Positions 7,131-63,091 are shown, numbered from the stretch's first letter. The stretch is 64,000 bases of DNA from an uncultured Bdellovibrio sp. (GCA_964490895.1 CAZBEI010000065.1:1192-65191), one strand, 5' to 3'. Numbers and translations: made by a program. Notes: a model not told the origin generated them from the letters alone.

Positions 7131-7138
7131 ATCAGCTC

Positions 7139-26158: not shown

Positions 26159-26261
26159 AATCCTCTTTCCTTTGGAAACAAGTATAGAAAATTTTCTGTA
26201 TATTAAAAGTATAGAAAACAGTGTAAGACTGTAAAAAAAACTCACAAAGAGGAAACTACCC

Positions 26262-27267: not shown

Positions 27268-27283
27268 TGGCATATTATTTGCA
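27268..27283 (+). promoter_or_regulatory. Sigma-54 promoter-like motif TGGCAT-N5-TTGCA (inside repeated element copy A)
   Basis: Near-consensus -24/-12. A TTGTGACAA palindrome lies ~75 bp upstream (27189-27197). Confidence 0.5.
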
Positions 27284-27301
27284 TCAGCACTGTACTTAAA
27301 A

Positions 27302-28057
27302 ATGCAAAAAAAAGTGGCCTCTAAAATTTTTGTAGTCAGTGCTATTTTTTTCCTAAGCGCCAATGCGACTGCACTCGAACAAACTGTCACACAAGGCATC
27401 AAGTCACTGGATTGCCAGAAAGAAATTTTAAGTCAACTCTCTCAGTGGGGAACCAAAAATGAGTGGATGACTCTGAAGCGTCCATTTGAAGACGAAAATT
27501 CCTACTTGAGTCCCACTCACGAAATCGGCGTTTGGGTCAAAATTCAATTTCAAACCCCACATGCACTTACCGCTTATCGAATGAATACAGAGCAAACAGA
27601 AAAAATCAATTGGGACAAAAAATGCCAAGCAACTTCTCAAATTCATGACACAAAAGGGGCGGAAGAAAAAAAAGACCCGGATTTATTGAGTGACAGTGAC
27701 TTAAAAGTCTTGATCAAAGATAATCCTTCTGGAATTTTATTTGTTTGGACCCCTCACACCCCTTGCTCGATCAAAGGGCTGAGAAATATCCAAATGGCTG
27801 CAAAAACACTCGGAGTTAAACTTTTTCCACTTTTACACCCCGCCTCCAACAGAAAGAGGGCTTGGCAAATGATCAGAGAGCTGCAACTTCCAGTCGATCA
27901 GTTGAGAGAAGTGGCGTCTTTAGAGCTTATTTTGAGAGGACTCATCAATCATGCTCCATCGATGATTGTGTTTTCGAAGGGAGAAATTAAAACTCCGATC
28001 TTGCGAGGCCCACACAGTTCTCTTAGATACCTCAACTTTGTAAAAGAAACCCTATGA
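27302..28057 (+). CDS. Secreted hypothetical protein
   Basis: Signal peptide; no recognised domain. Starts with MQKK, shared with the duplicated element. Confidence 0.45.
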   Translation: MQKKVASKIFVVSAIFFLSANATALEQTVTQGIKSLDCQKEILSQLSQWGTKNEWMTLKRPFEDENSYLSPTHEIGVWVKIQFQTPHALTAYRMNTEQTEKINWDKKCQATSQIHDTKGAEEKKDPDLLSDSDLKVLIKDNPSGILFVWTPHTPCSIKGLRNIQMAAKTLGVKLFPLLHPASNRKRAWQMIRELQLPVDQLREVASLELILRGLINHAPSMIVFSKGEIKTPILRGPHSSLRYLNFVKETL

Positions 28058-28067
28058 GGACAGGAAC

Positions 28068-29510
28068 TTGACAATGAAAAATATTCTCTCATGCTTGATA
28101 GTAGGGTTATTTTTTCTAAAACCCTCTCTAGCATCTTTGCCAAGCTATTGTTCTTTGCCTTCAGTGTATACAAAAATTTTACATACTTTTCCACGAGACG
28201 GTAAATTTTTAGACAATATTGCTTGGCTTTCAAATCCTGTCCCCAATTCTGTAGGACTTCCCTATCTCATTAGTTTTAGTCAGTTCATGGAAGATGGCAA
28301 AGACAAAAACTATATTCTCAATTTAGCCTCTGGAAAAACAGTCACTATTCCGGGTCAAGGAGATCCTGTGGTCACTCCAGACGGAAAATTTTTGACTATT
28401 CCAGGAGCTCACTCTGGAGAAAGCCAACTCCTTATTTTTTTAACTAAAACTGTTTTGAGGACTTTATTAAAAAAAGAGGCCGGCATTAATAGTCTCGAAA
28501 AAATAAAGCCCCTTTTTGTAGATCCAAAAGTCGAGGGGTATTGCCAGTCCTTTGGAGTATTGCCAAGCAAAAAAGGCACAATCCGATACAGACTCCTACA
28601 CACAGAAGGAGGCGGGCCCTTTCAGCTCACGGAGTACGAAGTTCATGAAAAAAACGGAAAATTTGAATTTAAAAATCTCGGGGCCATGCAGGTCTGTAGC
28701 AACATGCCGAATTCAGTCCACGACAATGGTACCGCGATTCTCTCAAAAGATGGACGCTATGTCTCTCTCTATGACTCTCAAGCACAGTCTACAAAGATTT
28801 TTGAACTCGAAGTAGCACAGGGAAAATGCTCTTGCAAAGAAGCCGTGGACTTCGGGTTTCCAACAGGAAGAGTGGATTTTAGCTACGATGGGAAAAAAAT
28901 TACTTTTCATGTCAATTTCTTAGGTATTGATTATGCAGACAATTATGTTTTAAAAGTCCCAGCATCTAAAATAAAAGACGTTTTTGTGGCCGAGCTTGAT
29001 TATAAAAATGGAAAAATAACCGGCATCAAAAAAATGGCGCGCTTGACAGCTTCTCAAAAAATGGGCGAAGGCTCTTATTTTCCGACTTTTTTGCCCAATG
29101 GAAAAATCTTTTATGTCTATCAAGACAACAGTGACCAACAGGACCGAAAATATCGACTTGAAGTCGTAGACTCTCGAAGTGCTAAGTATGAGGAAAATTT
29201 ATTTTCAAAACTCGACTCAGAAAAAGAGCAGGCTCGGTTTTTATCCAAAGTAGCATTGGGAAGACTTTGGTCCAAAGCCTGCGAACAAAAAATACTCACC
29301 CCCATTCAGTCAGCTCTGTACGCCATGAGTTTAGATACAAAATCCTGTCAATCTGTTGTGCGAGGTTCTTGGTCAAAATATAAATCTCAGATTTTAGTTG
29401 AGTTAACAGCTAACCGGAATGAAACGAGCTCAAGACTTAAAAAAATCAAGGACTCTGTTTTTAGACGTAAGATTTTTCAAGAGACACTCTTGGCGGCTTG
29501 TAGGCAATGA
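28068..29510 (+). CDS. Secreted protein with TolB/WD40-like beta-propeller repeats
   Basis: Signal peptide. Repeated DG-hydrophobic blades (TPDGKFLTIPG, SKDGRYVSLYD, SYDGKKITFHV, LPNGKIFYVYQD). Confidence 0.5.
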   Translation: MTMKNILSCLIVGLFFLKPSLASLPSYCSLPSVYTKILHTFPRDGKFLDNIAWLSNPVPNSVGLPYLISFSQFMEDGKDKNYILNLASGKTVTIPGQGDPVVTPDGKFLTIPGAHSGESQLLIFLTKTVLRTLLKKEAGINSLEKIKPLFVDPKVEGYCQSFGVLPSKKGTIRYRLLHTEGGGPFQLTEYEVHEKNGKFEFKNLGAMQVCSNMPNSVHDNGTAILSKDGRYVSLYDSQAQSTKIFELEVAQGKCSCKEAVDFGFPTGRVDFSYDGKKITFHVNFLGIDYADNYVLKVPASKIKDVFVAELDYKNGKITGIKKMARLTASQKMGEGSYFPTFLPNGKIFYVYQDNSDQQDRKYRLEVVDSRSAKYEENLFSKLDSEKEQARFLSKVALGRLWSKACEQKILTPIQSALYAMSLDTKSCQSVVRGSWSKYKSQILVELTANRNETSSRLKKIKDSVFRRKIFQETLLAACRQ

Positions 29511-29624: not shown

Positions 29625-29640
29625 TGGCCTATTACTTGCA
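29625..29640 (+). promoter_or_regulatory. Sigma-54 promoter-like motif TGGCCT-N5-TTGCA (inside repeated element copy B) upstream of the Mo-enzyme operon
   Basis: Near-consensus -24/-12, 17 bp upstream of the ATG at 29657. The TTGTGACAA palindrome lies ~75 bp upstream (29544-29552). Confidence 0.5.
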
Positions 29641-29656
29641 CCAATAAAGACTACAA

Positions 29657-30466
29657 ATGCAAAAAAGAGGGGCTGAGAGCCAAGAAATTGACTTCGACTG
29701 TGTAGATTTTCATCGCCGATGGGAAAGAGCACGTATTTCTGCTCTTAAAAAAGCATTAGATTTTATCCCACAGGCTCTAGATACGGAAAAAGAGTTTCAA
29801 CTTCTCACACTGGTAAGACCAGAATCTGAAAACCTTGTGTTAAAGCTTGTGTTTGACCATAGTTTTCAACTTGGAAAAAGTTTATCCCTGTTTTTGAAAC
29901 GCCCCATCACACTGAAAGAAATCAAAAAAATCATAACCTCATCAAACCAATCTTGTCACCAGGGAGTTTGGCAAGATAAAGGCTTTGCTTTTGTATTAGA
30001 ACGAGAGGGATGTGATTCACAAAAGAAAACAGGAAAGTTTTACTGCCAGTACTCTAGGGAAGCTATGGATGGTTTGACTATGGGGGCGTGCAAAGACGAG
30101 GGGTATGCACGCCACAAAAGCGTAGGGCATGGAGATGAAAACTGTGTTGATGTTTTCTACAGTGAAAATGCGAGATCCAATCAGTTTGGAGGCATTGCAA
30201 AAGAAATATCTGAAAAACTAGAGTTTCTGCAAGAAGAGTTTGAAAAAATGAACTTGAACCTCGTTTTTGATGGAATTCGAGAAGGTACGTTATTTTACCA
30301 ACTTACCTCTAAAAATAGCTCTCTGTGTGGAAGTTCTGAAGACTTATTTCACCGTACCATTCAAGAAAGAATTAAAAAAGAATTCCCACTCCTTATCGTT
30401 CAAAATAGAACACCAAAATCTGTATTGGCAAAAAACAAAAATCACGAGGTGTATCCCCATGCCTAA
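29657..30466 (+). CDS. Hypothetical Cys/His-rich cytoplasmic protein translationally coupled to the molybdoenzyme alpha subunit
   Basis: 269 aa, no signal peptide. Its stop overlaps the alpha start (ATGCCTAA). Start codon uncertain. Confidence 0.4.
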   Translation: MQKRGAESQEIDFDCVDFHRRWERARISALKKALDFIPQALDTEKEFQLLTLVRPESENLVLKLVFDHSFQLGKSLSLFLKRPITLKEIKKIITSSNQSCHQGVWQDKGFAFVLEREGCDSQKKTGKFYCQYSREAMDGLTMGACKDEGYARHKSVGHGDENCVDVFYSENARSNQFGGIAKEISEKLEFLQEEFEKMNLNLVFDGIREGTLFYQLTSKNSSLCGSSEDLFHRTIQERIKKEFPLLIVQNRTPKSVLAKNKNHEVYPHA

Positions 30467-33400
30467 CGCAATTAAAAGAAGAGATTTTCTAAAAGGAATG
30501 GCTTATGTGGGCTCTTGGGGAGTGGCTTCGTCATGGATGCTCTCCCATAAACTCATGGCTGCTCCCATTCGTTACTTTAAACCCACCCACATCGAAAATC
30601 CTCTCGCTTTTTATCCGAATCGAGACTGGGAAAAAGTCTATCGTAATATTTTTGAACCAGACTCCTCTTTTGTTTTTTTATGCGCCCCCAATGACACCCA
30701 CAACTGCCTCCTAAAAGCTTATGTAAAAAATGGAGTCATTATCCGAATTGGACCCAGTTATGGTTATGGAAAAGCAACGGACCTCTATGGCAATCAGGCT
30801 TCTCATCGGTGGGATCCGAGAATTTGTCAAAAGGGGCTCGCTCTTGTTCGCAGAATATATGGAGACCGTAGAGTAAAAGCTCCCATGGTGAGGCGAGGGT
30901 TTAAGCAGTGGGTAGAAGACGGATTTCCAAGAGATCCATTGACTGGAAAACCAGATCCTAAATATTTCGAGCGCGGAAAAGACAAGTGGTTAAGGATCGA
31001 CTGGGAGGGAGCCTATGATTTGTCAGCTCGTACGATTGAGAATATCAGCAAAACTTATTCTGGAGAAAGTGGAGCAAAATTGCTTAAAGCACAAGGATAT
31101 GACCCCAGCATGATTGAGGCAACAGAAGGTGCGGGGACTCAGACTATTAAGCTTCGGGGTGGGATGGCATTCTTGGGTGCAACACGGATTTTTGGGCTTT
31201 ATCGATTTGCCAATATGCTCGCACTCATGGATGCAAAACAGCGTGGAGTTTCGCCTGATCAAGCCATCGGTGCAAGAGGTTGGGACAGTTATAGCTGGCA
31301 CACGGATCTCCCTCCTGGGCATCCCATGGTTACAGGGGCACAGACCAATGACTTTGATCTTTTTTCTACAGAATATTCAAAATTAATCATTGCCTGGGGA
31401 ATGAATTGGATCACCACTAAAATGCCAGACTCCCATTGGCTAACAGAGGCGCGGTTGAAGGGAGCAAAGACTGTTGCTGTAACGGTAGAATACAGTGCTA
31501 CGGGATCAAAGTGTGACGATGTCATTATTATCCGTCCTGGAACAGATCCTGCATTTGCCCTGGGAGTTGCGCAAGTTATTATTTCTAAAAAATTGTATGA
31601 CGAAGACTTTGTGCAAAAAAATACGGATTTACCTTTTTTAATTCGCTTAGACACGCTCCAACCTCTCCGCCCAGAAGAAGTGTTTGCAAACTATAAAGCC
31701 ACTCCTATCGAAACCATGAGCTTTATCAAGAAAGGCGAAAAAACATTACCAGGGAATTTACAAAAAAATCAATTTGCAAATGAGAACATGCAAAAAGATT
31801 TTAGTCCGTACGTTATTTTTGATAAAAAAATAAAAAAATTAGTCCCGGTAACACGAGACCAATGGGGACAGACATTCTCTCAAACCGAAATGAAGCCAGA
31901 CCTAAGAGCCCATCGAAAAATAAAACTCATTAACGGCAATGAAGTCGAAGTCAGAACGGTTTTCCATTTGACAGAGGAATATCTCAATAAAAACTTTACA
32001 CCCAAACTCACCGCTCTTGTCACAGGAACCCCAGAAAAAACCATCGTCAATCTTGCACTGGATATTGCAAAAAATAAGGAAAAAACTCTTTTTGCCTGCG
32101 GAATGGGCCCCAATCAGTTTTTTAACTCAGATCTAAAAGACAGGGCTATTTTTTTAGTGGCTGCTCTGACTCGAAATGTTGGCTTTCCGGGTGGAAACGT
32201 GGGGAGCTATGCCGGAAATTATAGAGCGGCACTTTTTGGAGGGATACCACAATTTGCAACAGAAGATCCCTTTCACCTCCAACTTGAAAAAGGAGGCAAA
32301 ATTACAGTAAAAAAATATCTCCATTATGAGTCACTCCATTATTTTAACTATGGAGACAGACCCTTAAGACTTGGCAACAAACTTTTTACAGGACATGGCC
32401 ACTTGCCCACTCCTACAAAAATGATGTGGTTAAATAACTCTAACTCAGTGATCGGTAACATTAAATGGCATTTCGATGTCGTCAATAATACTCTTCCAAA
32501 GCTAGAGTTTATTGCTTACTCAGATTGGTGGTGGACTGGATCCTGCGAGTACTCAGACATTGTATATGGTGTAGATAGTTGGGCTGAGTTCAAGGTTCCA
32601 GACATGTGTGGCTCTTGCACGAACCCTTTTGTTCAGATTTATCCGAGAACTCCCGTTCCAAGAATTTTTAATACCAAAAGTGATATTGAAGTGATTGCTG
32701 GTGTATCCAAACGATTGGGCGAGATTTTGAACGAACCTCGCATGAAAGACATGTGGAAGTTTGTTTCCGATGGTGACGTCGACGAATATCTGCAGAGAGT
32801 GATTGATCATTCGTTTACGCTAAAAGGATATGACTTTAAAACTCTAGAAAAAAATGCCAAAGAAGGGATTCCAGCTTTACTCAATACAAGGACTTACCCG
32901 AGAGTTTCCTCCTTTGAGCAAGCAAAAAACGAACAACCTTGGCACACAAAATCTGGTCGGCTAGAGTTTTATCGATTCGAATCGGACTTCATTGATAGCG
33001 GAGAAAACATGGTTGTTTACCGAGAGCCCATTGACTCCACTCATTATGAACCTAACGTGATTGTAGCTCATCCTCATACAGCCATTCGGCCAAAAACTCC
33101 AAAAGATTATGGACTCGATCCAAAGGATCTTTCGGTGGAGGCAAGACAGGTCAGAAATGTTCTGAAAACGCCAGAAGAGTTGATTCGATCTCAACATCCG
33201 CTGAAATTAAAATTATACTCTCACGTTTACCACACTCCTAAGTACCGACATGGAGCTCATTCGACCCCTGTCGATACTGATTATACTTCGGTTTGGTTTG
33301 GTCCATTTGGGGACGTGTATCGACACGACAAGAGAATGCCTGCCAACTCTGAAGGCTACGTTGACATCAATCCGCTCGATGCAAAGGCTTTAGGCGTAGA

Positions 33401-33941
33401 AGATGGAGATTATGTCTATATTGACGCTGACCCAGAAGATCGGCCTTTTAGGGGTTGGAAAGAAAATACACTGGAGTACAAAGTCGCACGGCTGCTTTTG
33501 AGAGCTCGTTATTACCCGGGCACACCCCGTGGAATCGCGCGCACTTGGCACAACATGTATGGTGCGACGTTGGGCAGCGTAAAAGCTCACGAAACGAGGC
33601 CAGACGGTTTGGCAAAAAATACTGAAACCAACTATCAGTCTATGTACCGTTATGGGAGCCATCAAAGTGCCACACGAGCATGGCTCAGGCCCACTCTCAT
33701 GACAGAATCCCTTGTCCACAAGGGCATGTTTGGCCAAGGAATTGAAAAGGGTTTTGCTCCTGATATTCATTGCCCAGTGGGTGCTCCCAGAGAAGCTTTT
33801 GTGAAAATCACTAAAGCAGAATTAGGGGGTATGGATGGAAAGGGAATGTGGAGGCCCGCCTCACTTGGCTTCAGACCTACCTACGAAAACAAAGCAATGA
33901 AAGAGTATCTAAAGGGTCATTTCTTAAAGAAAAAATCTTAG
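30459..33941 (+). CDS. Type II DMSO-reductase-family molybdoenzyme alpha subunit, periplasmic nitrate reductase / nitrite oxidoreductase-like (NarG/NxrA-type), Tat-exported
   Basis: Start at MPNAIKRRDFLKG (twin-arginine motif) with RBS GAGGTG; the track ORF begins upstream at 30267. About 1160 aa. The first Fe-S (FS0) motif C-x3-D-x3-C aligns to NarG H-x3-C-x3-C next to YVKNG. The Mo-ligand Asp region TTKMPDSHWLTEARLKGAKTVAV parallels NarG. Confidence 0.85.
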   Translation: MPNAIKRRDFLKGMAYVGSWGVASSWMLSHKLMAAPIRYFKPTHIENPLAFYPNRDWEKVYRNIFEPDSSFVFLCAPNDTHNCLLKAYVKNGVIIRIGPSYGYGKATDLYGNQASHRWDPRICQKGLALVRRIYGDRRVKAPMVRRGFKQWVEDGFPRDPLTGKPDPKYFERGKDKWLRIDWEGAYDLSARTIENISKTYSGESGAKLLKAQGYDPSMIEATEGAGTQTIKLRGGMAFLGATRIFGLYRFANMLALMDAKQRGVSPDQAIGARGWDSYSWHTDLPPGHPMVTGAQTNDFDLFSTEYSKLIIAWGMNWITTKMPDSHWLTEARLKGAKTVAVTVEYSATGSKCDDVIIIRPGTDPAFALGVAQVIISKKLYDEDFVQKNTDLPFLIRLDTLQPLRPEEVFANYKATPIETMSFIKKGEKTLPGNLQKNQFANENMQKDFSPYVIFDKKIKKLVPVTRDQWGQTFSQTEMKPDLRAHRKIKLINGNEVEVRTVFHLTEEYLNKNFTPKLTALVTGTPEKTIVNLALDIAKNKEKTLFACGMGPNQFFNSDLKDRAIFLVAALTRNVGFPGGNVGSYAGNYRAALFGGIPQFATEDPFHLQLEKGGKITVKKYLHYESLHYFNYGDRPLRLGNKLFTGHGHLPTPTKMMWLNNSNSVIGNIKWHFDVVNNTLPKLEFIAYSDWWWTGSCEYSDIVYGVDSWAEFKVPDMCGSCTNPFVQIYPRTPVPRIFNTKSDIEVIAGVSKRLGEILNEPRMKDMWKFVSDGDVDEYLQRVIDHSFTLKGYDFKTLEKNAKEGIPALLNTRTYPRVSSFEQAKNEQPWHTKSGRLEFYRFESDFIDSGENMVVYREPIDSTHYEPNVIVAHPHTAIRPKTPKDYGLDPKDLSVEARQVRNVLKTPEELIRSQHPLKLKLYSHVYHTPKYRHGAHSTPVDTDYTSVWFGPFGDVYRHDKRMPANSEGYVDINPLDAKALGVEDGDYVYIDADPEDRPFRGWKENTLEYKVARLLLRARYYPGTPRGIARTWHNMYGATLGSVKAHETRPDGLAKNTETNYQSMYRYGSHQSATRAWLRPTLMTESLVHKGMFGQGIEKGFAPDIHCPVGAPREAFVKITKAELGGMDGKGMWRPASLGFRPTYENKAMKEYLKGHFLKKKS

Positions 33942-33949
33942 GAGAGTTT

Positions 33950-35080
33950 ATGTCAAAAGTAAAAAATTGGCACTTGGGACGTGAGATGGAATATGTTTAC
34001 GAAGAACATCGCCCCAAAAAACAATGGTCCATAGTATTCGATTTGAATAAATGCATTGCCTGCCAAACTTGTACACTGGCTTGTAAAACCACCTGGACGA
34101 GTGGAAAAGGCCAGGAATACATGTTTTGGAATAATGTCGAAACAAAGCCCTATGGGAGCTATCCACTGGCATGGGATGTGCGAGTTTTAGAAAAACTAGG
34201 TCAACAAGAGTGGGGGAAAAAAGAACCTTATTACGGGAAGACGATTTTTGAGGGAGCCCTGCCGACCGAAAGGGCCGTACACTTTCATCCCAAAGACGAA
34301 GACTGGATGTATCCCAATCAGGGCGAAGATGATTGCTTAGGAAATGTAACAAGGGGTGACTCTATTACTCTTCCGCACGACAAGTGGTTTTTTTATTTAC
34401 CTAGAACTTGTGCTCATTGTACTTATCCCGCTTGTCTCGCTGCATGCCCCAGAAAAGCAATTTATAAAAGAGACGAAGACGGAATTGTTTTGATCGATCA
34501 ATCCAGGTGCAAAGGCTATGGAGAATGCGTTCGAGCCTGCCCATACAAAAAATCAATGTACAACCCTTATACAAGAGTGAGCGAAAAATGTATCGGTTGC
34601 TATCCCGCAGTTGAGAAGGGCTATCAACCCATGTGTGTGCAAAACTGTATTGGGAAAATTAGAATCATGGGGTTTGTAAACCCTCCCTGGAAAGTGAGAG
34701 AGAATAATCCAATTGATTATTTGATTCACAAAAAAGAATTAGCCCTGCCTTACTATCCACAACTGGGATTAGAGCCTAATATCTATTACATCCCACCCAT
34801 CCATGCTGATAAAACATACCTCACTCAAATGTTTGGACCCAATGTCGAACACTCAATAGAACAATATAAAAAAATAAAGAACGACATTACAACACAGGGT
34901 CTTTTGGTTTTGATGGGTAGTACGGATCGAATTATTCATAGTTTTGAAGTTAAAAACAATACGGCCTATGGATATGACGAAAAGGGAGACGAAATTGTCC
35001 ATGTTCCTATCACAGAACCACTTTATGAGAGAGAAAGCTTTGATGCCAAACGTCAGGTTGTCAGGAACAATACGCCCTAA
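33950..35080 (+). CDS. Molybdoenzyme beta subunit (four Fe-S clusters; NarH/NxrB-like)
   Basis: Start at MSKVKNW with RBS GGAGAG. Cys clusters CIACQTCTLAC, CAHCTYPACLAACP, CKGYGECVRACP, CIGCYP..C. Confidence 0.8.
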   Translation: MSKVKNWHLGREMEYVYEEHRPKKQWSIVFDLNKCIACQTCTLACKTTWTSGKGQEYMFWNNVETKPYGSYPLAWDVRVLEKLGQQEWGKKEPYYGKTIFEGALPTERAVHFHPKDEDWMYPNQGEDDCLGNVTRGDSITLPHDKWFFYLPRTCAHCTYPACLAACPRKAIYKRDEDGIVLIDQSRCKGYGECVRACPYKKSMYNPYTRVSEKCIGCYPAVEKGYQPMCVQNCIGKIRIMGFVNPPWKVRENNPIDYLIHKKELALPYYPQLGLEPNIYYIPPIHADKTYLTQMFGPNVEHSIEQYKKIKNDITTQGLLVLMGSTDRIIHSFEVKNNTAYGYDEKGDEIVHVPITEPLYERESFDAKRQVVRNNTP

Positions 35081-35093
35081 CTAAGGAGTAAAC

Positions 35094-35954
35094 ATGAAAA
35101 TAAAAAGAAACTTATTTTTACTTTTTTTTATATTAAATTTATGTCCCTCAATTGATGCAGCCGAACTTATTTCTAAGTTTGTGAAGGCAGACTTCTCCCA
35201 TTTTCCAATGGGCGATGACATCTGGAAGGGAGCACGCGAAGAAACAATTAAACTCATGGCTCAACCCATGGCCATCCCAAGACCCAAAGAAACAAACACA
35301 TCCGAAATTTATGTCAAAACCTTAAATGATGGAAAATGGATTGCCTTTCGAATCAGGTGGAAAGACACAGAGAAAAACGAAGCAGGTAGGTTGGGTCAGT
35401 TTTCGGATGCACTTGCTCTTGAGTTTCCAGTCAAAAGTAACCTTTCTCCACCTCCGATTTTCATGGGTGCCAAAGATAACCCTGTTCATGTTTTTCATTG
35501 GCGCGCTCAGTATCAGGCAGACAAAGAACGCGGAAAACCCACGATGAAGGATCTTTATCCCAATATGAATGTCGACATTTATCCTATGGAATTTCAGGAC
35601 CAAGGCTACCTCATGGGATTAACCGAAGAAAAAAGAGAAGTCTTCTCACATGGGATGGCAGCAGGAAATCCTCAGTCGTACAGAAAAATCCATGGTGTGG
35701 ATGAGATTTTTGCTGAAGGTTTTGGGAGTAGCTCCGTCATTGAAAACGTTGAGTCAATTGCACAGGGGGCTTGGAAAAATAATGAATGGGATCTCGTTTT
35801 GTCTAGATCGCTTAAGCGCGAAAACGGATCTATTTTAGAGTCTGGAAAAGGGAGCTTTGTAGGTTTTGCTGTTTGGCAGGGAGGCAAAGACGAAGTGGGA
35901 TCTAGAAAATCAGTCACCATGAATTGGACACCCCTTAAGATTCAAGCAGAATAG
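35094..35954 (+). CDS. Gamma subunit, EbdC/NxrC-like periplasmic haem-b protein (ethylbenzene-dehydrogenase gamma family)
   Basis: Signal peptide, 286 aa. Conserved FPMGDDIWKGA..W.A.Y pattern of type II gamma subunits. Gene order matches alpha-beta-gamma-delta. Confidence 0.7.
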   Translation: MKIKRNLFLLFFILNLCPSIDAAELISKFVKADFSHFPMGDDIWKGAREETIKLMAQPMAIPRPKETNTSEIYVKTLNDGKWIAFRIRWKDTEKNEAGRLGQFSDALALEFPVKSNLSPPPIFMGAKDNPVHVFHWRAQYQADKERGKPTMKDLYPNMNVDIYPMEFQDQGYLMGLTEEKREVFSHGMAAGNPQSYRKIHGVDEIFAEGFGSSSVIENVESIAQGAWKNNEWDLVLSRSLKRENGSILESGKGSFVGFAVWQGGKDEVGSRKSVTMNWTPLKIQAE

Positions 35955-35965
35955 GAGTACTTATT

Positions 35966-36649
35966 ATGGAAAATAATTTTGCAAATAAAGTCTCACAGTT
36001 TGTCTTGGCTTCACTTATTACGTCTTACCCAGACACAGCTTTTCCCGATCATCTGTCAAAAATATCTCAAACTGAGCTTGATTGTAGTGAACTCATGGCA
36101 ATGCTCCACTCCTATTGCGAAAGCCAAATCAAATTAGATAACCTCAGGTCTGATTATATTGACATTTTTGATCGAGGAAAAAATCTAAACCCTCTTTATG
36201 AAACAGAATATGAGAGAGAGCGAACACAAGTAAAAGCCACAACGCTTTCAGATATTGCTGGATTTTATAAGGCGTTTGGATTTGACTTCGATGGCACAAG
36301 CTATCCAGAAATGGTGGACCATGTGTCTGTTGAGCTTGAGTTTTATGCCTTGTTGCTCATGAAACAAGCTTATCTTGAAGAAAATAAAACGACAGAGGGT
36401 GTGTCCATAACATTAGATGCTAGGAAAAAATTTCTAAAAGATCACTTGGGTCGCTTTGTTGGTTCCATTGCTGAACGGCCAGGGGTCAAAGAAAACCATT
36501 TTTATTCTCGTGTTTTTGATTGGTGTAAAGATTTGATTCAAACAGAATGCCAAGAACTTGGGGTCAAAGTGATTCCAGCCCAGTGGTTTTCAGTATCACA
36601 AAAGCCGCAAGATTCTGGCGAAATGTGCTGCGGGGATCATAAAAATTGA
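35966..36649 (+). CDS. TorD/NarJ-family redox-enzyme maturation chaperone (delta subunit)
   Basis: 227 aa, all-helical. The DIFDRG..YETEYE..EL.FY..L pattern is typical of the NarJ/TorD family. Confidence 0.65.
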   Translation: MENNFANKVSQFVLASLITSYPDTAFPDHLSKISQTELDCSELMAMLHSYCESQIKLDNLRSDYIDIFDRGKNLNPLYETEYERERTQVKATTLSDIAGFYKAFGFDFDGTSYPEMVDHVSVELEFYALLLMKQAYLEENKTTEGVSITLDARKKFLKDHLGRFVGSIAERPGVKENHFYSRVFDWCKDLIQTECQELGVKVIPAQWFSVSQKPQDSGEMCCGDHKN

Positions 36650-37629
36650 CAAAATTACAAGATCCTTTTGATAGGAAATTTTCTTATCTCCGACTTTCTG
36701 TTACAGATGTCTGTAATTTTAGGTGCGTTTATTGCCTCCCCAAGGGCTATCAAAAACCAAAAAAATCTTTTACTCCTTTAACATTAGTTGAAATCAAAAA
36801 TCTCGTGCTCGCATTTTCTGAGCTAGGTATCACCAAAGTGAGGCTGACCGGTGGAGAGCCCACAACAAGACATGACATTGTCGAAATAGCTCGAGTGATT
36901 TCAGAAATCCAAGGAATAAAAAAAATCGCACTGACCACCAATGGTTATCGTTTAAGTGAACTCGTTCCCCACCTTAAAGCAACGGGTCTGTCCTCCCTCA
37001 ATGTCAGTGTGGACAGCTTAGATCCTGAAAATTTTTCTAGTATTACGGGCAAGCCCTTGCTTCATAAAGTTCTCGACGGGATAAGTCGCGCAATTCAAGT
37101 CGGAATAGCATCAGTAAAAATAAACGTAGTTTATTTGAAAAAAATAAATAGCGCAGAACTTGAGCGATTTTTAGACTGGGCCAAAGAAACCCCTGTCGCT
37201 ATTCGCTTTATTGAGCTCATGGAGACTGGAAAAAATAAAGTATTATTTCAATCCCATCACCTCTCATTAGGAGAAATTCAATTTTACCTTTTAAAGTCGG
37301 GCTGGAGTTTAATCCCAAAAGAAACTGACAGTGGGCCCGCCTGGGAGTACTGCCACCCAGAGTATAGGGGTCAAATTGGAGTCATTGCTCCCTACTCAAA
37401 AGATTTTTGCCAGTCTTGCAACCGGCTACGCATTTCTTCTCAAGGCGAACTCAAACTCTGTCTTTTTGGTGAAAAAAATTACTCTTTGCGCCACCTCCTC
37501 CAATCGCAAAAATATAAAGAAGAGCTCAAATCAACAATCCAACATTTGATCTATCAGAAACCCATTTCACATTTCTTACACGAGGGAAAATATGGAAACA
37601 CATGGAATCTATCCTCCATCGGAGGATAA
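36646..37629 (+). CDS. moaA: GTP 3',8-cyclase MoaA (radical SAM)
   Basis: CNFRCVYC radical-SAM motif and a C-terminal CQSCNRLR..G cluster. Confidence 0.85.
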   Translation: MTKLQDPFDRKFSYLRLSVTDVCNFRCVYCLPKGYQKPKKSFTPLTLVEIKNLVLAFSELGITKVRLTGGEPTTRHDIVEIARVISEIQGIKKIALTTNGYRLSELVPHLKATGLSSLNVSVDSLDPENFSSITGKPLLHKVLDGISRAIQVGIASVKINVVYLKKINSAELERFLDWAKETPVAIRFIELMETGKNKVLFQSHHLSLGEIQFYLLKSGWSLIPKETDSGPAWEYCHPEYRGQIGVIAPYSKDFCQSCNRLRISSQGELKLCLFGEKNYSLRHLLQSQKYKEELKSTIQHLIYQKPISHFLHEGKYGNTWNLSSIGG

Positions 37630-38602
37630 CTCTTCGCAAATGGTGGATGTTAGCTCAAAAGACATCACCTTACGCAAAGCGCGTGCAACAGGAAGAATTC
37701 AAGTTTCTCTAGAAATCATAGAAAAAATCAAATCAAACACAATTCCAAAGGGAGATGTTTTTAGAGTGGCAGAAGTCGCTGGCATTCTTGCTGCCAAAAA
37801 AACTCCAGAGATCATCCCCCTTTGCCATCCCATCCTTATTGAGTCTGTTCGAATCCATTGCGAAATAAAAACGCCACATGCGATAGAAGTGACCTCCGAA
37901 GTCATAGCCCAAGCCAAAACAGGTGTTGAAATGGAAGCTTTGGTGGCCGTGCAAGCGGCACTGCTGTGCATTTATGACATGACAAAGGGGCTTTATCCCT
38001 ACGCTACCATCGAAGACGTTCATGTTGTATCTAAAACGGGTGGAAAATCGGAACATTGGCCAAACCCTAAAAACAACACACAACAATTAGATATAAAAGT
38101 TGGGATCCTGACCGTGAGTGACCGTTGTTCAAAAGGCAAACAAGAAGACAAATCCGGAAAAACAATTGAGTGTTTTTTTACTGAAACAAACTCTACTCTC
38201 ATCGGGAGTCTCATCGTACCAGACGATGTGGGCAAAATTCAAAGTGCCATCAAAAATTTAGCATTTGAGGAAAAAGCAGACCTCATTATCACAACAGGTG
38301 GGACTGGACTCGGCCCTCGAGATCAAACTCCTTTAGCGCTACAGACGCTTTGGACAAAGCCCTTGCCAGGAGTTGGAGAACTCTTAAGGAGTAAAGGTTC
38401 GCTACACACTCCACTTTCTTGGCTGAGCCAAATGGAGGCTGGATTGATCGAAAATACCCTGGTGGTCTCCCTACCAGGCAGCCCAAAGGCTGTAAAAGAG
38501 TCCCTAGATATTTTGAGCCCCTTACTGGTGCATATTTTTGACATGATTCGCGGAGAGAATCATGAAGGTAAAATGATTCGCGGAGAGAATCATGAAACTT
38601 AA
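37592..38602 (+). CDS. moaC: Bifunctional MoaC (cyclic pyranopterin monophosphate synthase) and MogA/MoaB-like molybdopterin adenylyltransferase fusion
   Basis: N-terminal half has MVDVSSKDITLRKARA..EIIPLCHP (MoaC). C-terminal half has GILTVSDR..IITTGGTGLGPRD (MogA/MoaB). Confidence 0.75.
   Translation: METHGIYPPSEDNSSQMVDVSSKDITLRKARATGRIQVSLEIIEKIKSNTIPKGDVFRVAEVAGILAAKKTPEIIPLCHPILIESVRIHCEIKTPHAIEVTSEVIAQAKTGVEMEALVAVQAALLCIYDMTKGLYPYATIEDVHVVSKTGGKSEHWPNPKNNTQQLDIKVGILTVSDRCSKGKQEDKSGKTIECFFTETNSTLIGSLIVPDDVGKIQSAIKNLAFEEKADLIITTGGTGLGPRDQTPLALQTLWTKPLPGVGELLRSKGSLHTPLSWLSQMEAGLIENTLVVSLPGSPKAVKESLDILSPLLVHIFDMIRGENHEGKMIRGENHET
38543..38602. repeat. 30-bp tandem duplication (atgattcgcggagagaatcatgaa + 6 nt) at the moaC-mogA / transporter junction
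   Basis: Two adjacent 30-bp units with 26/30 identity. Each carries GGAGAG-N4-ATG. The first gives the mini-ORF MKVK; the second is the transporter start. Confidence 0.8.
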
Positions 38603-39683
38603 ATGGCTATCCAATCAATTTCTTGGAGCCTTTTCTGACGGAGCGATTTTGATTCCTATGATCGCTGTGCTCTCTGCAAAGTCTGGATATAATATTAAAA
38701 CTCTACTCTTCAGTGCAGGGATTATTTATTGTGTGAGTGGAGCTTATTTTAAAATCCCAATGGCTGTGCAACCTCTAAAATCACTGGTGATCACGGCTCT
38801 TGCAATTCAAGCAAGTCTCACCGAAATTAGGCTAGTGGGAGCATTGATTGGACTACTTTGCCTGTTTTTGACTCTCTTTGATGCCAATGCACTTGCTAAA
38901 AAAGTACCCATTGAGCTGATACACGGGCTCCAAGTAGCATTGGGTGTTTTACTTATTTTACAAGGGTTTAGAGCTATCCACACAGAAGTGCTTGTTGTTT
39001 TAGTTGTTTTAGTTATTATTTACTATTTCTTCGAATTTCCGATTTTAGGCGTATTGGCTTGCCTTGGAATTTTATTCTCTTTCACACGCACACTACCCAT
39101 CCCTGGCAGCACAATCAATATAAACGGAAGTGAGTTTAGATTTTCAGTTATTATTTCACTTTTACTTCCGCAAATAATTCTGACACTCAGCAATTCAGTC
39201 ATTGGAACGTATCACGTTTCACAGTACTATTTTCCAAAAGGGGCAAGCAAAGTAACTCCCAAACGACTTTTAACTTCGATTGGGATTGGAAACATTTTGA
39301 CAGCCTTATTTGCGGGTCTCCCCTTTTGTCATGGCTCTGGTGGAATTACGGCACATTACTTGGGTGGAGCCAGACATTACATTTCAAACTTTATTGTAGG
39401 CTTTTTTCTAATTGGAGTATTCATTTTTCTCCAATTTTCTAAAAATTATTTTACCTTTCACTATCCTCCCATTCTTTTGTCAAGCTTGCTCATATCAGTA
39501 GGAGTTTTTCATATCAAATTAGCAAAAGAGACTTGGATTAAAAAAGAAAATGGCAAACCAACCCTCATGCTGATGGCTCTTACTGCACTGACAACACAAA
39601 ACTTACTCTACGCACTGGGGATTGGAATATTTCTAGAACTCATCAGTAAACGGATCTATAAATTGACAGGAGCACGCTCATGA
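38592..39683 (+). CDS. Polytopic membrane transporter embedded in the Moco cluster (possible molybdate/sulfate-family permease)
   Basis: 363 aa, about 10 TM helices. Position between mogA and moeA suggests molybdate uptake; family not securely identified. Confidence 0.5.
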   Translation: MKLKWLSNQFLGAFSDGAILIPMIAVLSAKSGYNIKTLLFSAGIIYCVSGAYFKIPMAVQPLKSLVITALAIQASLTEIRLVGALIGLLCLFLTLFDANALAKKVPIELIHGLQVALGVLLILQGFRAIHTEVLVVLVVLVIIYYFFEFPILGVLACLGILFSFTRTLPIPGSTININGSEFRFSVIISLLLPQIILTLSNSVIGTYHVSQYYFPKGASKVTPKRLLTSIGIGNILTALFAGLPFCHGSGGITAHYLGGARHYISNFIVGFFLIGVFIFLQFSKNYFTFHYPPILLSSLLISVGVFHIKLAKETWIKKENGKPTLMLMALTALTTQNLLYALGIGIFLELISKRIYKLTGARS

Positions 39684-40939
39684 TCACTTATGCACAAGCT
39701 TTAGAGATCATCTATGAAGCTGGAAATAAAAAAATATTAGGAACAGAAAAAATTTCAATAGAACTATCCATCGGAAGAGTCTTAGCGGAATCCATTTATA
39801 GCCCAGAGGATCTGCCAGGATTTGACAACTCAGCGATGGATGGTTTTTGTGTTGTCTCAAAAGAGACTCTCACCGCAAGTCAAGCTCACCCCATTGAGCT
39901 TTCAATTTTAGATACAATTGCAGCAGGGGACTCCAAGAAATTTGATCCAAGCACATTGGCTGAAAATCTTATCTGCTTCGAAATCATGACCGGAGCTCCT
40001 CTTCCTCATACGCAGTTTGATGCAGTGGTTAAGGTAGAAGATGTAAAGCGGTTGGGAAATAAAATCATATTGACCCGACCCATTCTCAGCAAAGAAAATG
40101 TTCGACATCAAGGTTCCGATACTCAGATGGGAACTTTAATCCTTGGATCTGGGACTCCACTCTCGCACCAACACTTACTCATGCTCGCAGCACTGGGCAT
40201 AAGCGAAGTTTCTGTATTTAAAAAGCTAAAACTAGCCCTTATTTCAACTGGAAAAGAACTGGCTCATTATACCGAAAAGGAGTTAAAACCAGGACAAATT
40301 AGAAATTCTACAGCGCCCTATTTATTGAGCCTACTAAACTCTCTGGGGTTTAACGTGACCTATATAGGAAACATCCAAGATGATCCGGGTTACTTCAAAA
40401 AAAAATGTGACAAAATTATTTTTGATGATTTTGATATTCTTCTTACAACGGGTGCTGTCTCTGTAGGGAAATTTGATTTCATCAAAGAAGTATTAACTCA
40501 AATGAAGACAGAAATTCTATTTCACAAATCTGCTATTCGACCTGGCAAGCCTATTCTGTTTGGCGAATTTTGCCACCTTGCCAGTCATCACTCTGTGTTT
40601 TTTGGGATGCCTGGAAATCCAATCTCAACGGCAGTTGGGGTGAGGTTTTTTTTAATTCCCTACCTGCGTTGTATCACAAAACAACCCATGGAGGCGCCTC
40701 TTTTGATTGAGCTTGAAAACGAAGTGAGAAAACCCAAAGACCTGCGCTGTTTTTATAAAGCTAAACTCACTATTGTCTCCTCAAAAGCTAAGGTGACTGT
40801 TTTACCTGGACAGGCCTCGTTTATGGTCAGCCCACTCTTAGAGTCAAGCGCTTGGGCTGTTCTTCCAGATAGCAAAGAGGTGTTCGAGCCTGGAGAAAAA
40901 ATCGATGTTTATCCATTATTACCCCAAACCTATTTTTAA
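39680..40939 (+). CDS. moeA: Molybdopterin molybdotransferase MoeA
   Basis: 419 aa. PGFDNSAMDGFCV and GGVSVG blocks. Confidence 0.85.
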   Translation: MITYAQALEIIYEAGNKKILGTEKISIELSIGRVLAESIYSPEDLPGFDNSAMDGFCVVSKETLTASQAHPIELSILDTIAAGDSKKFDPSTLAENLICFEIMTGAPLPHTQFDAVVKVEDVKRLGNKIILTRPILSKENVRHQGSDTQMGTLILGSGTPLSHQHLLMLAALGISEVSVFKKLKLALISTGKELAHYTEKELKPGQIRNSTAPYLLSLLNSLGFNVTYIGNIQDDPGYFKKKCDKIIFDDFDILLTTGAVSVGKFDFIKEVLTQMKTEILFHKSAIRPGKPILFGEFCHLASHHSVFFGMPGNPISTAVGVRFFLIPYLRCITKQPMEAPLLIELENEVRKPKDLRCFYKAKLTIVSSKAKVTVLPGQASFMVSPLLESSAWAVLPDSKEVFEPGEKIDVYPLLPQTYF

Positions 40940-40959
40940 ATTAAGCCAAGGAAAATAAA

Positions 40960-41226
40960 ATGATTAAAATAAAATTTCAATTTTTTGGTCTGTTAAAAAA
41001 GCAAATTCCAGCTCCTTTTATCGAAATGGAAGTCGAAGAAGGAATAAAACTAAACCAACTCGTCACAAGGCTTCTCAATGTATTAAAAAACGAAGGACAC
41101 TGCTTACTCAATATCTCTACTCTTGACGAGTGCGCTATTGCCAACGAATCAAGAGTACTAGATAAAAATGAAGCAATCCATGAGAGCTGCACTCTTTCAC
41201 TTTTGCCGCCAGTTTGTGGAGGTTAA
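40960..41226 (+). CDS. moaD: Molybdopterin synthase sulfur-carrier subunit MoaD-like
   Basis: 88 aa ending in Gly-Gly (VCGG). Confidence 0.65.
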   Translation: MIKIKFQFFGLLKKQIPAPFIEMEVEEGIKLNQLVTRLLNVLKNEGHCLLNISTLDECAIANESRVLDKNEAIHESCTLSLLPPVCGG

Positions 41227-41273
41227 GTATTTTGTTTAAATATAAAATAAAAATAACAAAAAAGCCGATAGAA

Positions 41274-47088: not shown

Positions 47089-47262
47089 ACTATTCTGTTA
47101 AAGCTTGTTTCGGGGGCCATTGCCGCCACAGCTTTAGTGTTTTCATACAGCAATTTTGAAGGGTTCCCAAATGCTCCATGTAAGGCTGGCTAATCTTGAA
47201 AAATATAAAAAAATGACGGTAGAGCAGGTTTGTAATATATTTACTATATTCATATTGTTTAT

Positions 47263-63061: not shown

Positions 63062-63091
63062 AAGCATGACTTGCTAAGCCCTTGAAATCAT

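What the first reader, a model, noticed from the sequence alone, without database searches (positions are those of the whole stretch)
30459..36649. Complete periplasmic NXR/pNAR-type molybdoenzyme (alpha-beta-gamma-delta) with Cys-x3-Asp-x3-Cys FS0 motif
The alpha subunit (~1160 aa) has a twin-arginine signal. Its first Fe-S (FS0) motif aligns to NarG as C-APN-D-THN-C next to YVKNG. The Mo-ligand Asp region (TTKMPDSHW..KGAKTVAV) parallels NarG. A Cys-Asp-Cys variant with Tat export and an EbdC-like haem-b gamma subunit is what I recall for the Nitrospira / Nitrospina / anammox nitrite oxidoreductase clade and archaeal periplasmic Nar, not classical NarGHI. The beta subunit (~376 aa) and gamma (286 aa, signal peptide) sizes fit that clade. 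Together with NirK, a c-type cytochrome and a caa3 oxidase, the organism could either respire nitrate periplasmically or oxidise nitrite. Either is notable on a mobile island.
Basis: partly seen in the sequence, partly recalled or inferred. Interest (0 to 1): 0.8.

Follow-up and report, generated by a model that had tools for sequence, protein, structure and literature searches.

The report
Periplasmic nitrate/nitrite molybdoenzyme operon, Nitrotoga/pNAR-type
The region holds a complete operon for a soluble, exported molybdenum enzyme that interconverts nitrate and nitrite; it belongs to a very widespread, little-studied sister group of the classical nitrite oxidoreductases and here, in a Bdellovibrio-like genome, most likely respires nitrate rather than oxidising nitrite.

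Summary
Window 30459-36649 encodes alpha (1160 aa, Tat signal), beta (376 aa), gamma (286 aa, Sec signal, haem-b domain) and delta (chaperone). The FS0 motif is Cys75-x3-Asp79-x3-Cys83 plus Cys123.

Two details were wrong:
- The Mo ligand is Asp283 (WHTDLPP), not the Asp in TTKMPDSHW.
- The enzyme is not in the Nitrospira/Nitrospina/anammox NXR clade. It is 39.8% identical to Kuenenia NxrA and falls outside that clade (bootstrap 100).

It sits in the sister clade (bootstrap 98-100). That clade holds the expressed Methanoperedens nitrate reductase and copies from Thioploca, Thiomargarita and Thioalkalivibrio. By literature and a short N-terminal comparison it also holds Nitrotoga NXR and Hydrogenobaculum. 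At least 587 stretches of the species-representative genomes encode relatives.

The window's enzyme belongs to a tight Bdellovibrionota/Myxococcota subclade (68-77% identity).

No sequence feature found here tells the direction of catalysis. Neighbours in close relatives (NirK, NnrS, Crp/Fnr, nosZDFY) favour nitrate respiration (about 0.6) over nitrite oxidation (about 0.2).

New here:
- A subclade-specific four-cysteine gene lies directly upstream of alpha.
- The operon has a sigma-54-type promoter.
- A full molybdenum-cofactor gene set is attached.

A mobile-island origin is not supported. Verdict: new member of a known kind, moderate interest.

The parts
29625..29640 (+). sigma-54-type promoter (TGGCCTATTACTTGCA), 17 nt before the ATG at 29657
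   Evidence: TGGC-N7-TTGCW occurs 4 times in the window against 1.28 expected; only 1 of 100 shuffles reaches 4. Three of the four lie just upstream of start codons in the right orientation. TGGCAC-N5-TTCGC lies upstream of the homologous gene in L004 and L017. Function is inferred.
29657..30466 (+). Subclade-specific first gene: 269-aa cytoplasmic protein with four invariant Cys (C100, C119, C130, C163). It overlaps the alpha start by 8 nt. Function unknown.
30459..33941 (+). Alpha (catalytic Mo-bisPGD) subunit, 1160 aa. Tat signal RRDFLK; FS0 ligands C75/D79/C83/C123; substrate Asn78; Mo ligand Asp283.
33950..35080 (+). Beta (Fe-S) subunit, 376 aa, no signal peptide. Cys groups start at residues 35, 154, 187 (C-x2-Y-x2-C-x3-C) and 214.
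   Evidence: Pfam Fer4_11; best NCBIfam hit TIGR03478. Full-length match to Kuenenia NXR-B, E 2.8e-112.
35094..35954 (+). Gamma subunit, 286 aa. Sec signal, EB_dh haem-b domain, haem ligands Met124 and Lys272, no membrane helix.
   Evidence: Pfam PF09459. Aligned to Kuenenia NXR-C Met155/Lys305 (PMC8387239). Hydropathy scan.
35966..36649 (+). Delta: NarJ/TorD-type assembly chaperone, 227 aa
   Evidence: Pfam PF02613, E 3e-16; best NCBIfam hit TIGR03482.
36646..42270 (+). Co-directional molybdenum-cofactor module: moaA (36646-37629), moaC fused to a MoCF_biosynth domain (37592-38602), MOT1-family molybdate transporter (38592-39683), moeA (39680-40939), moaD (40960-41226, ends in GG), moaE (41214-41732), mobA-like (41662-42270)
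   Evidence: The same module follows the operon in L001, L004, L005, L007, L017 and L065.
42565..43668 (-). MoeB-like ThiF-rhodanese protein (activates MoaD)
   Evidence: Pfam ThiF plus Rhodanese.
13870..14226 (+). Monohaem class-I cytochrome c, 118 aa: candidate redox partner of the gamma haem
   Evidence: One CxxCH motif and Pfam Cytochrom_C. Homologues at 45-52% identity follow delta/moaA inside the operon in L002, L011 and L018. The partnership is inferred.
14804..15829 (+). NirK-like copper nitrite reductase, 341 aa: candidate consumer of the nitrite made
   Evidence: Best NCBIfam hit TIGR02376, 197 bits, full length, but below the 296-bit cut-off. nirK lies next to the operon in L004 and L017.
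11163..13776 (.). NtrC-type sigma-54 activator (11163-12599, +) and PAS histidine kinase (12586-13776, -): candidate regulators of the sigma-54 promoters
   Evidence: Pfam. The link to the operon is inferred only.
27268..29510 (+). Second sigma-54-type promoter (27268-27283) and two secreted proteins of unknown function (27302-28057, 28068-29510). They are not conserved in any related locus, so probably not part of the system.

Best explanation
The operon encodes a soluble periplasmic heterotrimer (alpha-beta-gamma).

Assembly (inferred from family knowledge): alpha is loaded with Mo-bisPGD and the FS0 cluster in the cytoplasm with help from the delta chaperone. It is then exported by Tat, with beta as a passenger. 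Gamma is exported by Sec.

Electron path (shown by conserved ligands): Mo (Asp283) - FS0 (3Cys/1Asp) - four Fe-S clusters in beta - a Met/Lys-ligated haem b in gamma. None of the three subunits has a membrane anchor. Exchange with the respiratory chain must therefore go through a soluble c-type cytochrome, as in selenate or chlorate reductase and in Kuenenia and Nitrotoga NXR (inferred).

Classification (shown): it belongs to the Nitrotoga-NXR/periplasmic-NAR sister clade of the canonical periplasmic NXRs.

Physiological role (inferred): in this Bdellovibrionota-like genome it most likely works as a respiratory nitrate reductase. The nitrite it makes would pass to NirK, giving respiration under low oxygen. 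Expression would run from a sigma-54 promoter. The attached cofactor genes and molybdate transporter make the module self-sufficient.
For: Family identity:
- Full-length matches to Kuenenia NXR-A, -B and -C (E 2e-274, 3e-112, 8e-26).
- All cofactor ligands are conserved.

Clade:
- NJ tree of 96 sequences over 1150 columns. Canonical NXR clade bootstrap 100; sister clade containing the query bootstrap 98-100; tight subclade bootstrap 100.
- The sister clade includes L060. Its gene order NarG-NarH-NarJ-Orf7-HCOII-like matches the expressed nitrate reductase cluster of Methanoperedens (PMC4683180; PMC7327174).
- It also includes copies from the sulfur bacteria Thioploca, Thiomargarita and Parabeggiatoa, which I know as nitrate respirers.

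Neighbours within 10 kb in close relatives (6 of 22 tight-subclade loci have at least one such neighbour):
- L017: a NirK-cytochrome c fusion, a NirV-like gene, SCO1 and NnrS.
- L004: Crp/Fnr, NnrS and nirK.
- L003: nosZ-nosDFY.
- L001: Crp/Fnr and a NIT-domain chemoreceptor.

Other points:
- A cytochrome c gene lies inside the operon in L002, L011 and L018.
- The subclade's hosts are Bdellovibrionota and Myxococcota. I know of no nitrite oxidiser among them.
Against: - The same broad clade holds the proven nitrite oxidoreductase of Nitrotoga, which has the same soluble ABCD layout (PMC6050957; bioRxiv 10.1101/317552). Over 74 residues around FS0 the query is 73% identical to the Nitrotoga row (OCR text, weak evidence).
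- A full-length Nitrotoga sequence could not be placed in the tree.
- NXR of this kind is reversible in vitro (PMC3578206).
- All known nitrite oxidisers also carry nirK, and a caa3 oxidase lies 7 kb away.
- Only 6 of 22 close loci show denitrification neighbours.
- No FNR box stands out in the window.
- The rest of the genome (carbon fixation, bc1/ACIII, nor, nos) was not available.
Confidence: 0.6

Rival explanations
1. It is a true nitrite oxidoreductase. Nitrite is oxidised in the periplasm and electrons pass via the gamma haem b to cytochrome c and on to the caa3 oxidase. This would give a predatory or heterotrophic bacterium a lithotrophic energy supplement, or even make it a new nitrite-oxidising lineage.
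For: - Nitrotoga NXR has the same superclade, layout and FS0 ligands.
- The N-terminal 74 residues are 73% identical to the Nitrotoga row, and Bdellovibrionota sequences are that row's best matches among my sequences.
- A caa3 oxidase and a cytochrome c lie in the window.
- A Met/Lys-ligated haem b was judged likely to have a high redox potential in Kuenenia NXR-C.
Against: - Neighbours in relatives are genes of nitrite, NO and N2O reduction and Crp/Fnr regulators.
- The experimentally grounded member actually placed in my tree is a nitrate reducer, the Methanoperedens enzyme. Others are named only in the literature.
- I know of no nitrite-oxidising phenotype in Bdellovibrionota or Myxococcota. 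Library searches found no paper linking nxrA with Oligoflexia, and only incidental co-mentions of Bdellovibrionota and nitrite oxidoreductase.
- The Nitrotoga comparison rests on a short, OCR-damaged stretch.
Confidence: 0.2
2. It acts physiologically in both directions: nitrate reductase under hypoxia, and nitrite oxidase or detoxifier under oxic conditions, depending on the redox state of the cytochrome c pool.
For: - Periplasmic NXR is reported as reversible (PMC3578206), and Kuenenia NXR is described as bidirectional (PMC10732223).
- Both an oxidase and a NirK are encoded nearby.
- There is no membrane subunit that would fix the direction.
Against: No direct evidence. Dedicated regulation (a sigma-54 promoter here, Crp/Fnr in relatives) suggests one main condition of use.
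Confidence: 0.12
3. It handles another substrate: chlorate or perchlorate, selenate, dimethyl sulfide, or a hydrocarbon.
For: - The best NCBIfam model is the general type II DMSO-reductase alpha subfamily.
- The soluble alpha-beta-gamma layout with an EB_dh gamma is shared with Ser, Clr, Ddh and Ebd.
Against: - Matches to the DMSO-reductase type II enzyme 4ydd_A (which I take to be perchlorate reductase) and to ethylbenzene dehydrogenase are far weaker than to NXR-A.
- The scores are far below those families' cut-offs.
- The substrate-coordinating Asn is conserved; it is Ile in EbdA.
- Outgroup sequences carry Cys, not Asp, at the FS0 position.
- No chlorite dismutase is seen among the neighbouring genes examined.
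Confidence: 0.05

Closest known systems
Candidatus Nitrotoga NxrABCD (soluble periplasmic nitrite oxidoreductase)
   Same: Tat-alpha of about 1160-1170 aa, signal-less beta, Sec-exported EB_dh gamma without a membrane helix, a TorD/NarJ-type delta, the same NCBIfam best hits (TIGR03479/03478/03477/03482) and Cys-x3-Asp-x3-Cys FS0. Identity is 73% over 74 N-terminal residues (OCR text).
   Different: Nitrotoga is a chemolithoautotrophic nitrite oxidiser. Its gamma is longer (371 aa against 286 aa). No upstream four-Cys gene is reported in the passages I read. Neighbours here and in relatives are denitrification genes. Full-length relatedness was not measured.
Candidatus Methanoperedens NarG-NarH-NarJ-Orf7 nitrate reductase
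   Same: Same sister clade: 56% alpha identity and 59% beta identity. Tat-alpha, and a haem-b Orf7 equivalent to gamma. It is the enzyme of a demonstrated nitrate reducer.
   Different: Gene order is alpha-beta-delta-gamma. It is followed by HCO-II-like and NapH-like membrane proteins that are absent here. The host is an archaeon.
Kuenenia stuttgartiensis NXR-ABC (PDB 7B04)
   Same: Alignable over the full length. The FS0 ligands (3Cys/1Asp), substrate Asn, Mo-Asp and Met/Lys haem-b ligands are the same residue types at aligned positions. It is a soluble heterotrimer.
   Different: Only 39.8% alpha identity, and a separate clade with bootstrap 100. There is no NXR-T tubule protein and no large 15-gene cluster here.
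Hydrogenobacter/Hydrogenobaculum periplasmic NAR
   Same: The literature places it in the same sister clade as Nitrotoga. Identity is 68% over 88 N-terminal residues (OCR text). Orientation is periplasmic.
   Different: It is reported as membrane-bound; the enzyme here has no anchor. Full-length comparison was not possible.
Escherichia coli NarGHJI
   Same: Mo-bisPGD with an Asp ligand, an FS0-FS4 Fe-S chain, and a NarJ-type chaperone.
   Different: NarGHI is cytoplasmic, with no Tat signal. FS0 is 3Cys/1His. A dihaem membrane NarI takes the place of the EB_dh gamma. It aligns only in segments (E 1e-38 to 1e-40), and TIGR01580 scores 159 bits against a cut-off of 1084.

Membership tests
Type II DMSO-reductase family (Asp-ligated Mo-bisPGD alpha-beta-gamma enzymes with a delta chaperone) | Asp ligand to Mo in the Y-x4-D-x11-Q motif | tested here: met
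   Y278-x4-D283-x11-Q295-T296. D283 aligns with Kuenenia D275 and is invariant in all 96 sequences.
Type II DMSO-reductase family (Asp-ligated Mo-bisPGD alpha-beta-gamma enzymes with a delta chaperone) | N-terminal FS0 [4Fe-4S] motif, a beta with four Fe-S clusters, an EB_dh haem-b gamma, and a NarJ/TorD delta | tested here: met
Type II DMSO-reductase family (Asp-ligated Mo-bisPGD alpha-beta-gamma enzymes with a delta chaperone) | Scores above the NCBIfam subfamily cut-offs (TIGR03479, 03478, 03477, 03482) | tested here: not met
   Scores against cut-offs: 281 vs 985, 264 vs 481, 123 vs 170, 70 vs 152 bits. These are the best-hit models, but the enzyme lies outside the sequences they were trained on. 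Nitrotoga NXR gives similar E-values.
Canonical periplasmic NXR (Nitrospira/Nitrospina/anammox clade) | Phylogenetic placement inside the clade (about 55-62% identity among its members) | tested here: not met
   39.8% identity to Kuenenia NxrA. Kuenenia plus two sequences about 60% identical to it form a clade with bootstrap 100 that excludes the query. The query is 45-47% identical to the Nitrospira and Nitrospina N-terminal rows.
Canonical periplasmic NXR (Nitrospira/Nitrospina/anammox clade) | Tat export and 3Cys/1Asp FS0 | tested here: met
   These features are shared by the whole superclade (87 of 88 sequences have Asp), so they do not discriminate.
Canonical periplasmic NXR (Nitrospira/Nitrospina/anammox clade) | Nitrite-oxidising activity and phenotype | not testable with these tools
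   Needs enzyme assays or physiology.
Nitrotoga-NXR / periplasmic-NAR sister clade | Placement in the clade that is sister to the canonical periplasmic NXRs | tested here: met
   Bootstrap 98-100 for a clade of 84-85 sequences that includes the Methanoperedens nitrate reductase orthologue. Nitrotoga and Hydrogenobaculum themselves were compared only over 74-88 OCR-derived residues.
Nitrotoga-NXR / periplasmic-NAR sister clade | Direction of catalysis (the clade holds both NXR and NAR) | not testable with these tools
   The authors of PMC10732223 could not assign a direction from sequence. Context evidence only.
Classical membrane-bound NarGHI | Cytoplasmic alpha without a Tat signal, His-x3-Cys-x3-Cys FS0, and a NarI dihaem membrane subunit | tested here: not met
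   A Tat motif is present. FS0 is Cys-x3-Asp-x3-Cys. Gamma is EB_dh, not NarI. TIGR01580 scores 159 against a cut-off of 1084 bits.
Haloarchaeal pNar (Haloferax mediterranei type) | Close sequence relationship to the characterised narG | tested here: not met
   tblastn identity is 24% to H. mediterranei narG. Halorussus-type sequences fall among the outgroups and carry Cys, not Asp, in FS0.
Perchlorate/chlorate/selenate reductases and ethylbenzene dehydrogenase | Clustering with PcrA, ClrA, SerA or EbdA | tested here: not met
   PDB E-values are 4e-52 for the DMSO-reductase type II enzyme 4ydd_A (which I take to be PcrA) and 6e-33 for EbdA, against 2e-274 for NXR-A. The EbdA equivalog scores 136 against a cut-off of 2000 bits. 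Asn78 is kept where EbdA has Ile.

The most novel reading that the evidence does not exclude
The Bdellovibrionota/Myxococcota subclade is marked by its own four-cysteine first gene, a self-contained molybdenum module and, in this window, a caa3 oxidase 7 kb upstream. It could be a nitrite-oxidising system. Predatory bacteria would then gain energy from nitrite, and nitrite oxidation would extend to phyla with no known nitrifiers.
Probability: 0.12. Interest if true: 0.8.

Novelty: new member of a known kind. Interest (0 to 1): 0.38.

Why it matters
Enzymes of this clade are often annotated only as 'molybdopterin-dependent oxidoreductase'. In metagenome surveys they are scored either as nxr or as nar.

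- The clade is very widespread: at least 587 stretches of the species-representative genomes encode relatives, across many phyla.
- Its hallmark Asp-ligated FS0 does not separate nitrite oxidisers from nitrate reducers. This warns against reading nitrification potential from such genes.
- For Bdellovibrio-like predators, usually regarded as aerobes, a periplasmic nitrate reductase plus NirK would mean respiration in low-oxygen habitats.
- The subclade-specific four-cysteine gene is an untested candidate assembly factor or sensor for this enzyme type.

Tried and rejected
1. The full NxrA alignment in the supplement of PMC8387239 was meant to supply Nitrotoga, Hydrogenobaculum, Nitrospira and Nitrospina references. 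The stored text is OCR-damaged, with duplicated rows. Only 74-89 N-terminal residues were used, as weak evidence.
2. The look-up of encoding contigs with the window's own alpha found nothing. The host is inferred only from its nearest relatives.
3. Homologue searches with the 269-aa protein and with its 16-sequence profile returned only 2 and 4 proteins. The structure model therefore rests on a 4-row alignment (pLDDT 73).
5. My idea that the 269-aa protein holds a V4R domain found no support in Pfam at E up to 1, nor in a PDB profile search.
6. An FNR/Crp box (TTGAT-N4-ATCAA) is no more frequent than chance, and none lies at the operon promoter.
7. No tRNA gene was found in the window, and no close homologue in PLSDB plasmids.
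8. Representatives at 50% identity did not resolve the clades.
9. The tree is neighbour-joining only; no ML software was available.

Full report
**What is there.**

On the + strand the window carries a compact operon.

- A 269-aa gene (29657-30466) overlaps the next start by 8 nt.
- Alpha (30459-33941, 1160 aa) has a twin-arginine motif at residues 7-12, a Pfam Molybdopterin domain, and TIGR03479 as best NCBIfam model.
- Beta (33950-35080, 376 aa) has four cysteine groups. [quoted passage not shown]
- Gamma (35094-35954, 286 aa) has a cleavable-looking N-terminal hydrophobic stretch, an EB_dh haem-b domain and no other hydrophobic segment.
- Delta (35966-36649, 227 aa) is a NarJ/TorD-type chaperone.
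- Directly downstream and co-directional lie moaA, a moaC-MoCF fusion, a MOT1-family molybdate transporter, moeA, moaD, moaE and a mobA-like gene. A ThiF-rhodanese (moeB-like) gene lies on the other strand.

**Cofactor ligands.**

The best solved relative of all three subunits is the Kuenenia stuttgartiensis nitrite oxidoreductase (7B04). The E-values are 2e-274 for alpha, 2.8e-112 for beta and 8e-26 for gamma, each aligned over essentially the full length.

I read the residue numbers off those alignments. Residue roles come from the structure paper (PMC8387239).

| Role | Kuenenia | Here |
|---|---|---|
| FS0 ligands | C67, D71, C75, C115 | C75, D79, C83, C123 |
| Substrate-coordinating Asn | N70 | N78 |
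| Mo ligand | D275 | D283 |
| Gamma haem-b ligands | M155, K305 | M124, K272 |

Its Mo-ligand assignment (the Asp in TTKMPDSHW, residues 319-327) is not. The ligand lies 41 residues upstream, in WHTDLPPGHP, within the Y-x4-D-x11-Q pattern described for NxrA.

**Which clade.**

- Close relatives (68-80% identity) are unnamed or are called 'molybdopterin-dependent oxidoreductase'. They come from Bdellovibrionota, Oligoflexia, Bdellovibrio sp., Myxococcota, and single Planctomycetota, Acidobacteriota, Cloacimonadota and Sericytochromatia MAGs.
- I aligned 96 alpha sequences and built a neighbour-joining tree with 100 bootstraps.
- The query is 39.8% identical to Kuenenia NxrA. The structure paper reports about 40% for Kuenenia against Nitrotoga and Hydrogenobaculum, and about 60% against Nitrospira/Nitrospina-type enzymes.
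- Kuenenia and two sequences about 60% identical to it form a clade with bootstrap 100.
- The query lies in the sister clade (bootstrap 98-100, 84-85 sequences). Other members there are 55-61% identical to it. They come from Methanoperedens, Thioploca, Thiomargarita, Parabeggiatoa, Thioalkalivibrio thiocyanoxidans, Methylomirabilota, Halobacteriales and many other phyla.
- Within that clade the query belongs to a tight subclade (bootstrap 100, 22 sequences). Its nearest neighbours are a Bacteriovoracaceae MAG (77%) and an Oligoflexia MAG (75%).
- The Methanoperedens locus has the gene order NarG-NarH-NarJ-Orf7-HCOII-like. This matches the expressed nitrate reductase cluster of that nitrate-reducing archaeon (PMC4683180).
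- Published trees place Nitrotoga NXR, the Hydrogenobacter periplasmic NAR, and the nitrate reducers Methanoperedens BLZ1 and Thermogutta in this wider group. Their authors say the direction cannot be read from sequence (PMC6050957; PMC10732223).
- I could not obtain a clean full-length Nitrotoga sequence. Over 74-88 OCR-derived N-terminal residues the query is 73% identical to the Nitrotoga row and 68% to Hydrogenobaculum, but 45-47% to Nitrospira and Nitrospina.
- The Haloferax-type archaeal pNar is only 24% identical.

The Cys-x3-Asp-x3-Cys motif is present in 87 of 88 members of the whole superclade (one has Glu). It is replaced by Cys in the outgroups. It marks the superclade, not a direction of catalysis.

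**How it most likely works.**

- Shown by sequence: Tat-alpha, signal-less beta, Sec-gamma, all redox ligands, and no membrane helix in any subunit.
- Inferred from the family: delta-assisted cofactor insertion, co-export of beta with alpha, and electron exchange between the gamma haem and a soluble cytochrome c.
- A monohaem cytochrome c (13870-14226) has homologues at 45-52% identity encoded inside the operon of three relatives.

Evidence on direction comes from genomic context.

- Bacteriovoracaceae relative (L017): divergent from the operon lie a NirK-cytochrome c fusion, a NirV-like gene, SCO1 and NnrS.
- Oligoflexia relative (L004): a Crp/Fnr regulator, NnrS and nirK.
- Sericytochromatia relative (L003): nosZ-nosDFY immediately upstream.
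- Bdellovibrio sp. (L001): a Crp/Fnr regulator upstream and a NIT-domain chemoreceptor downstream.
- Six of 22 close loci have at least one such neighbour.
- In the window itself a NirK-like gene lies 15 kb upstream, beside the cytochrome c.

Together with the nitrate-reducing members of the clade and the heterotrophic, predatory host lineages, this favours nitrate respiration feeding NirK. I put that at about 0.6.

Nitrite oxidation stays possible, at about 0.2:
- Nitrotoga uses the same layout.
- A caa3 oxidase is nearby.
- Nitrite oxidisers also carry nirK.
- The enzyme type is reversible.

**Things beyond the finding.**

1. The 269-aa first gene is specific to the subclade.
   - A homologue (23-38% identity) sits directly upstream of alpha in all 20 close loci that include upstream DNA. 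It is absent from 61 other loci of the wider clade.
   - It has four invariant cysteines, no signal peptide, and no Pfam, NCBIfam or PDB sequence match.
   - A metal- or Fe-S-binding assembly factor or sensor is a reasonable guess, nothing more.
2. A sigma-54-type promoter (TGGCCTATTACTTGCA) lies 17 nt before that gene.
   - Two similar sites precede other genes. The window holds four in all, against 1.28 expected.
   - The two closest relatives have TGGCAC-N5-TTCGC at the same place.
   - An NtrC-type activator and a PAS kinase are encoded at 11163-13776.
3. The attached cofactor genes, including a MOT1-type molybdate transporter, recur in related Bdellovibrionota. The module is therefore self-sufficient.

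**Mobile island?**

- GC content is even, at 0.39-0.44.
- No tRNA was found.
- The only integrase remnant is a C-terminal fragment 26 kb away.
- PLSDB plasmids hold no close homologue.
- The mixed phyla in the subclade do imply past horizontal transfer.
- The window gives no sign of a recent mobile element around the operon.

**Verdict.**

The enzyme is a new, uncharacterised member of a known and very widespread kind, the Nitrotoga-NXR/periplasmic-NAR clade. It is most likely a nitrate reductase here.

It is useful mainly as a caution for nxr/nar annotation, and for the subclade-specific accessory gene.

Noticed in passing
window 29657-30466; homologues in L001-L004, L006-L020 and L030: A 269-aa protein with four invariant Cys and no family assignment is the first gene of the operon. 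It occurs in every close relative that has upstream DNA, and in none of 61 more distant relatives.
   Followed up: partly
window 29625-29640, 27268-27283, 10040-10055 (-), 5611-5626 (-): Sigma-54-type promoter motifs (TGGC-N7-TTGCW), 4 found against 1.28 expected. Three lie just upstream of start codons. An NtrC-type activator (11163-12599) and a PAS kinase (12586-13776) are in the window.
   Followed up: partly
window 38592-39683; also L004, L017, L065: A MOT1-family (MFS_MOT1) molybdate transporter sits inside the moa gene cluster. Bdellovibrio sp. L001 has modABC-like ABC transporter genes (periplasmic binding protein, permease, ATPase) upstream instead.
   Followed up: no
window 62665-63024 and 63082-63411: A C-terminal fragment of a phage-type integrase. 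The next ORF translates to GIEPAT, which looks like a read-through of a tRNA-like sequence, but ARAGORN finds no tRNA.
   Followed up: partly
window 27302-29510: Two secreted proteins (251 and 480 aa) with no family hit and no homologue in any of the 83 related loci. They have their own sigma-54-type promoter and lie between a LysR regulator and the operon.
   Followed up: partly
window 23267-26290 (-): Aromatic amino acid breakdown genes (biopterin-dependent hydroxylase, HPPD, and a homogentisate dioxygenase N-terminal domain) lie between the caa3 oxidase and the operon. This fits a protein-eating heterotroph.
   Followed up: no
window 2040-2858, 3262-3834, 46675-53122: A MerC-HMA fusion and an AbiEi antitoxin-like gene (Pfam). 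By eye only, not tested: a MerR-like regulator and an RND heavy-metal efflux set.
   Followed up: no
window 5720-7684 (-): ApbE flavin transferase and an FMN_bind protein sit in a cluster of small unassigned membrane or secreted proteins. The role is unknown.
   Followed up: no
L032 (Brocadiia MAG), L031 and L038 (Nitrospirota MAGs): MAGs of anammox-related and Nitrospirota lineages carry copies of the sister-clade enzyme (57-58% identity to the query, about 42% to Kuenenia NxrA). These are distinct from the canonical NXR.
   Followed up: no
plasmid NC_019976.1 (Natronococcus occultus SP4), 115169-118351: A 47%-identical homologue of alpha lies on a haloarchaeal megaplasmid, with no annotated feature under the match.
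   Followed up: no
window 14804-15829: The NirK-like protein matches the copper nitrite reductase model over its full length, but at 197 bits against a cut-off of 296. It is a divergent NirK. The closest relative, L017, has a NirK fused to cytochrome c.
   Followed up: partly
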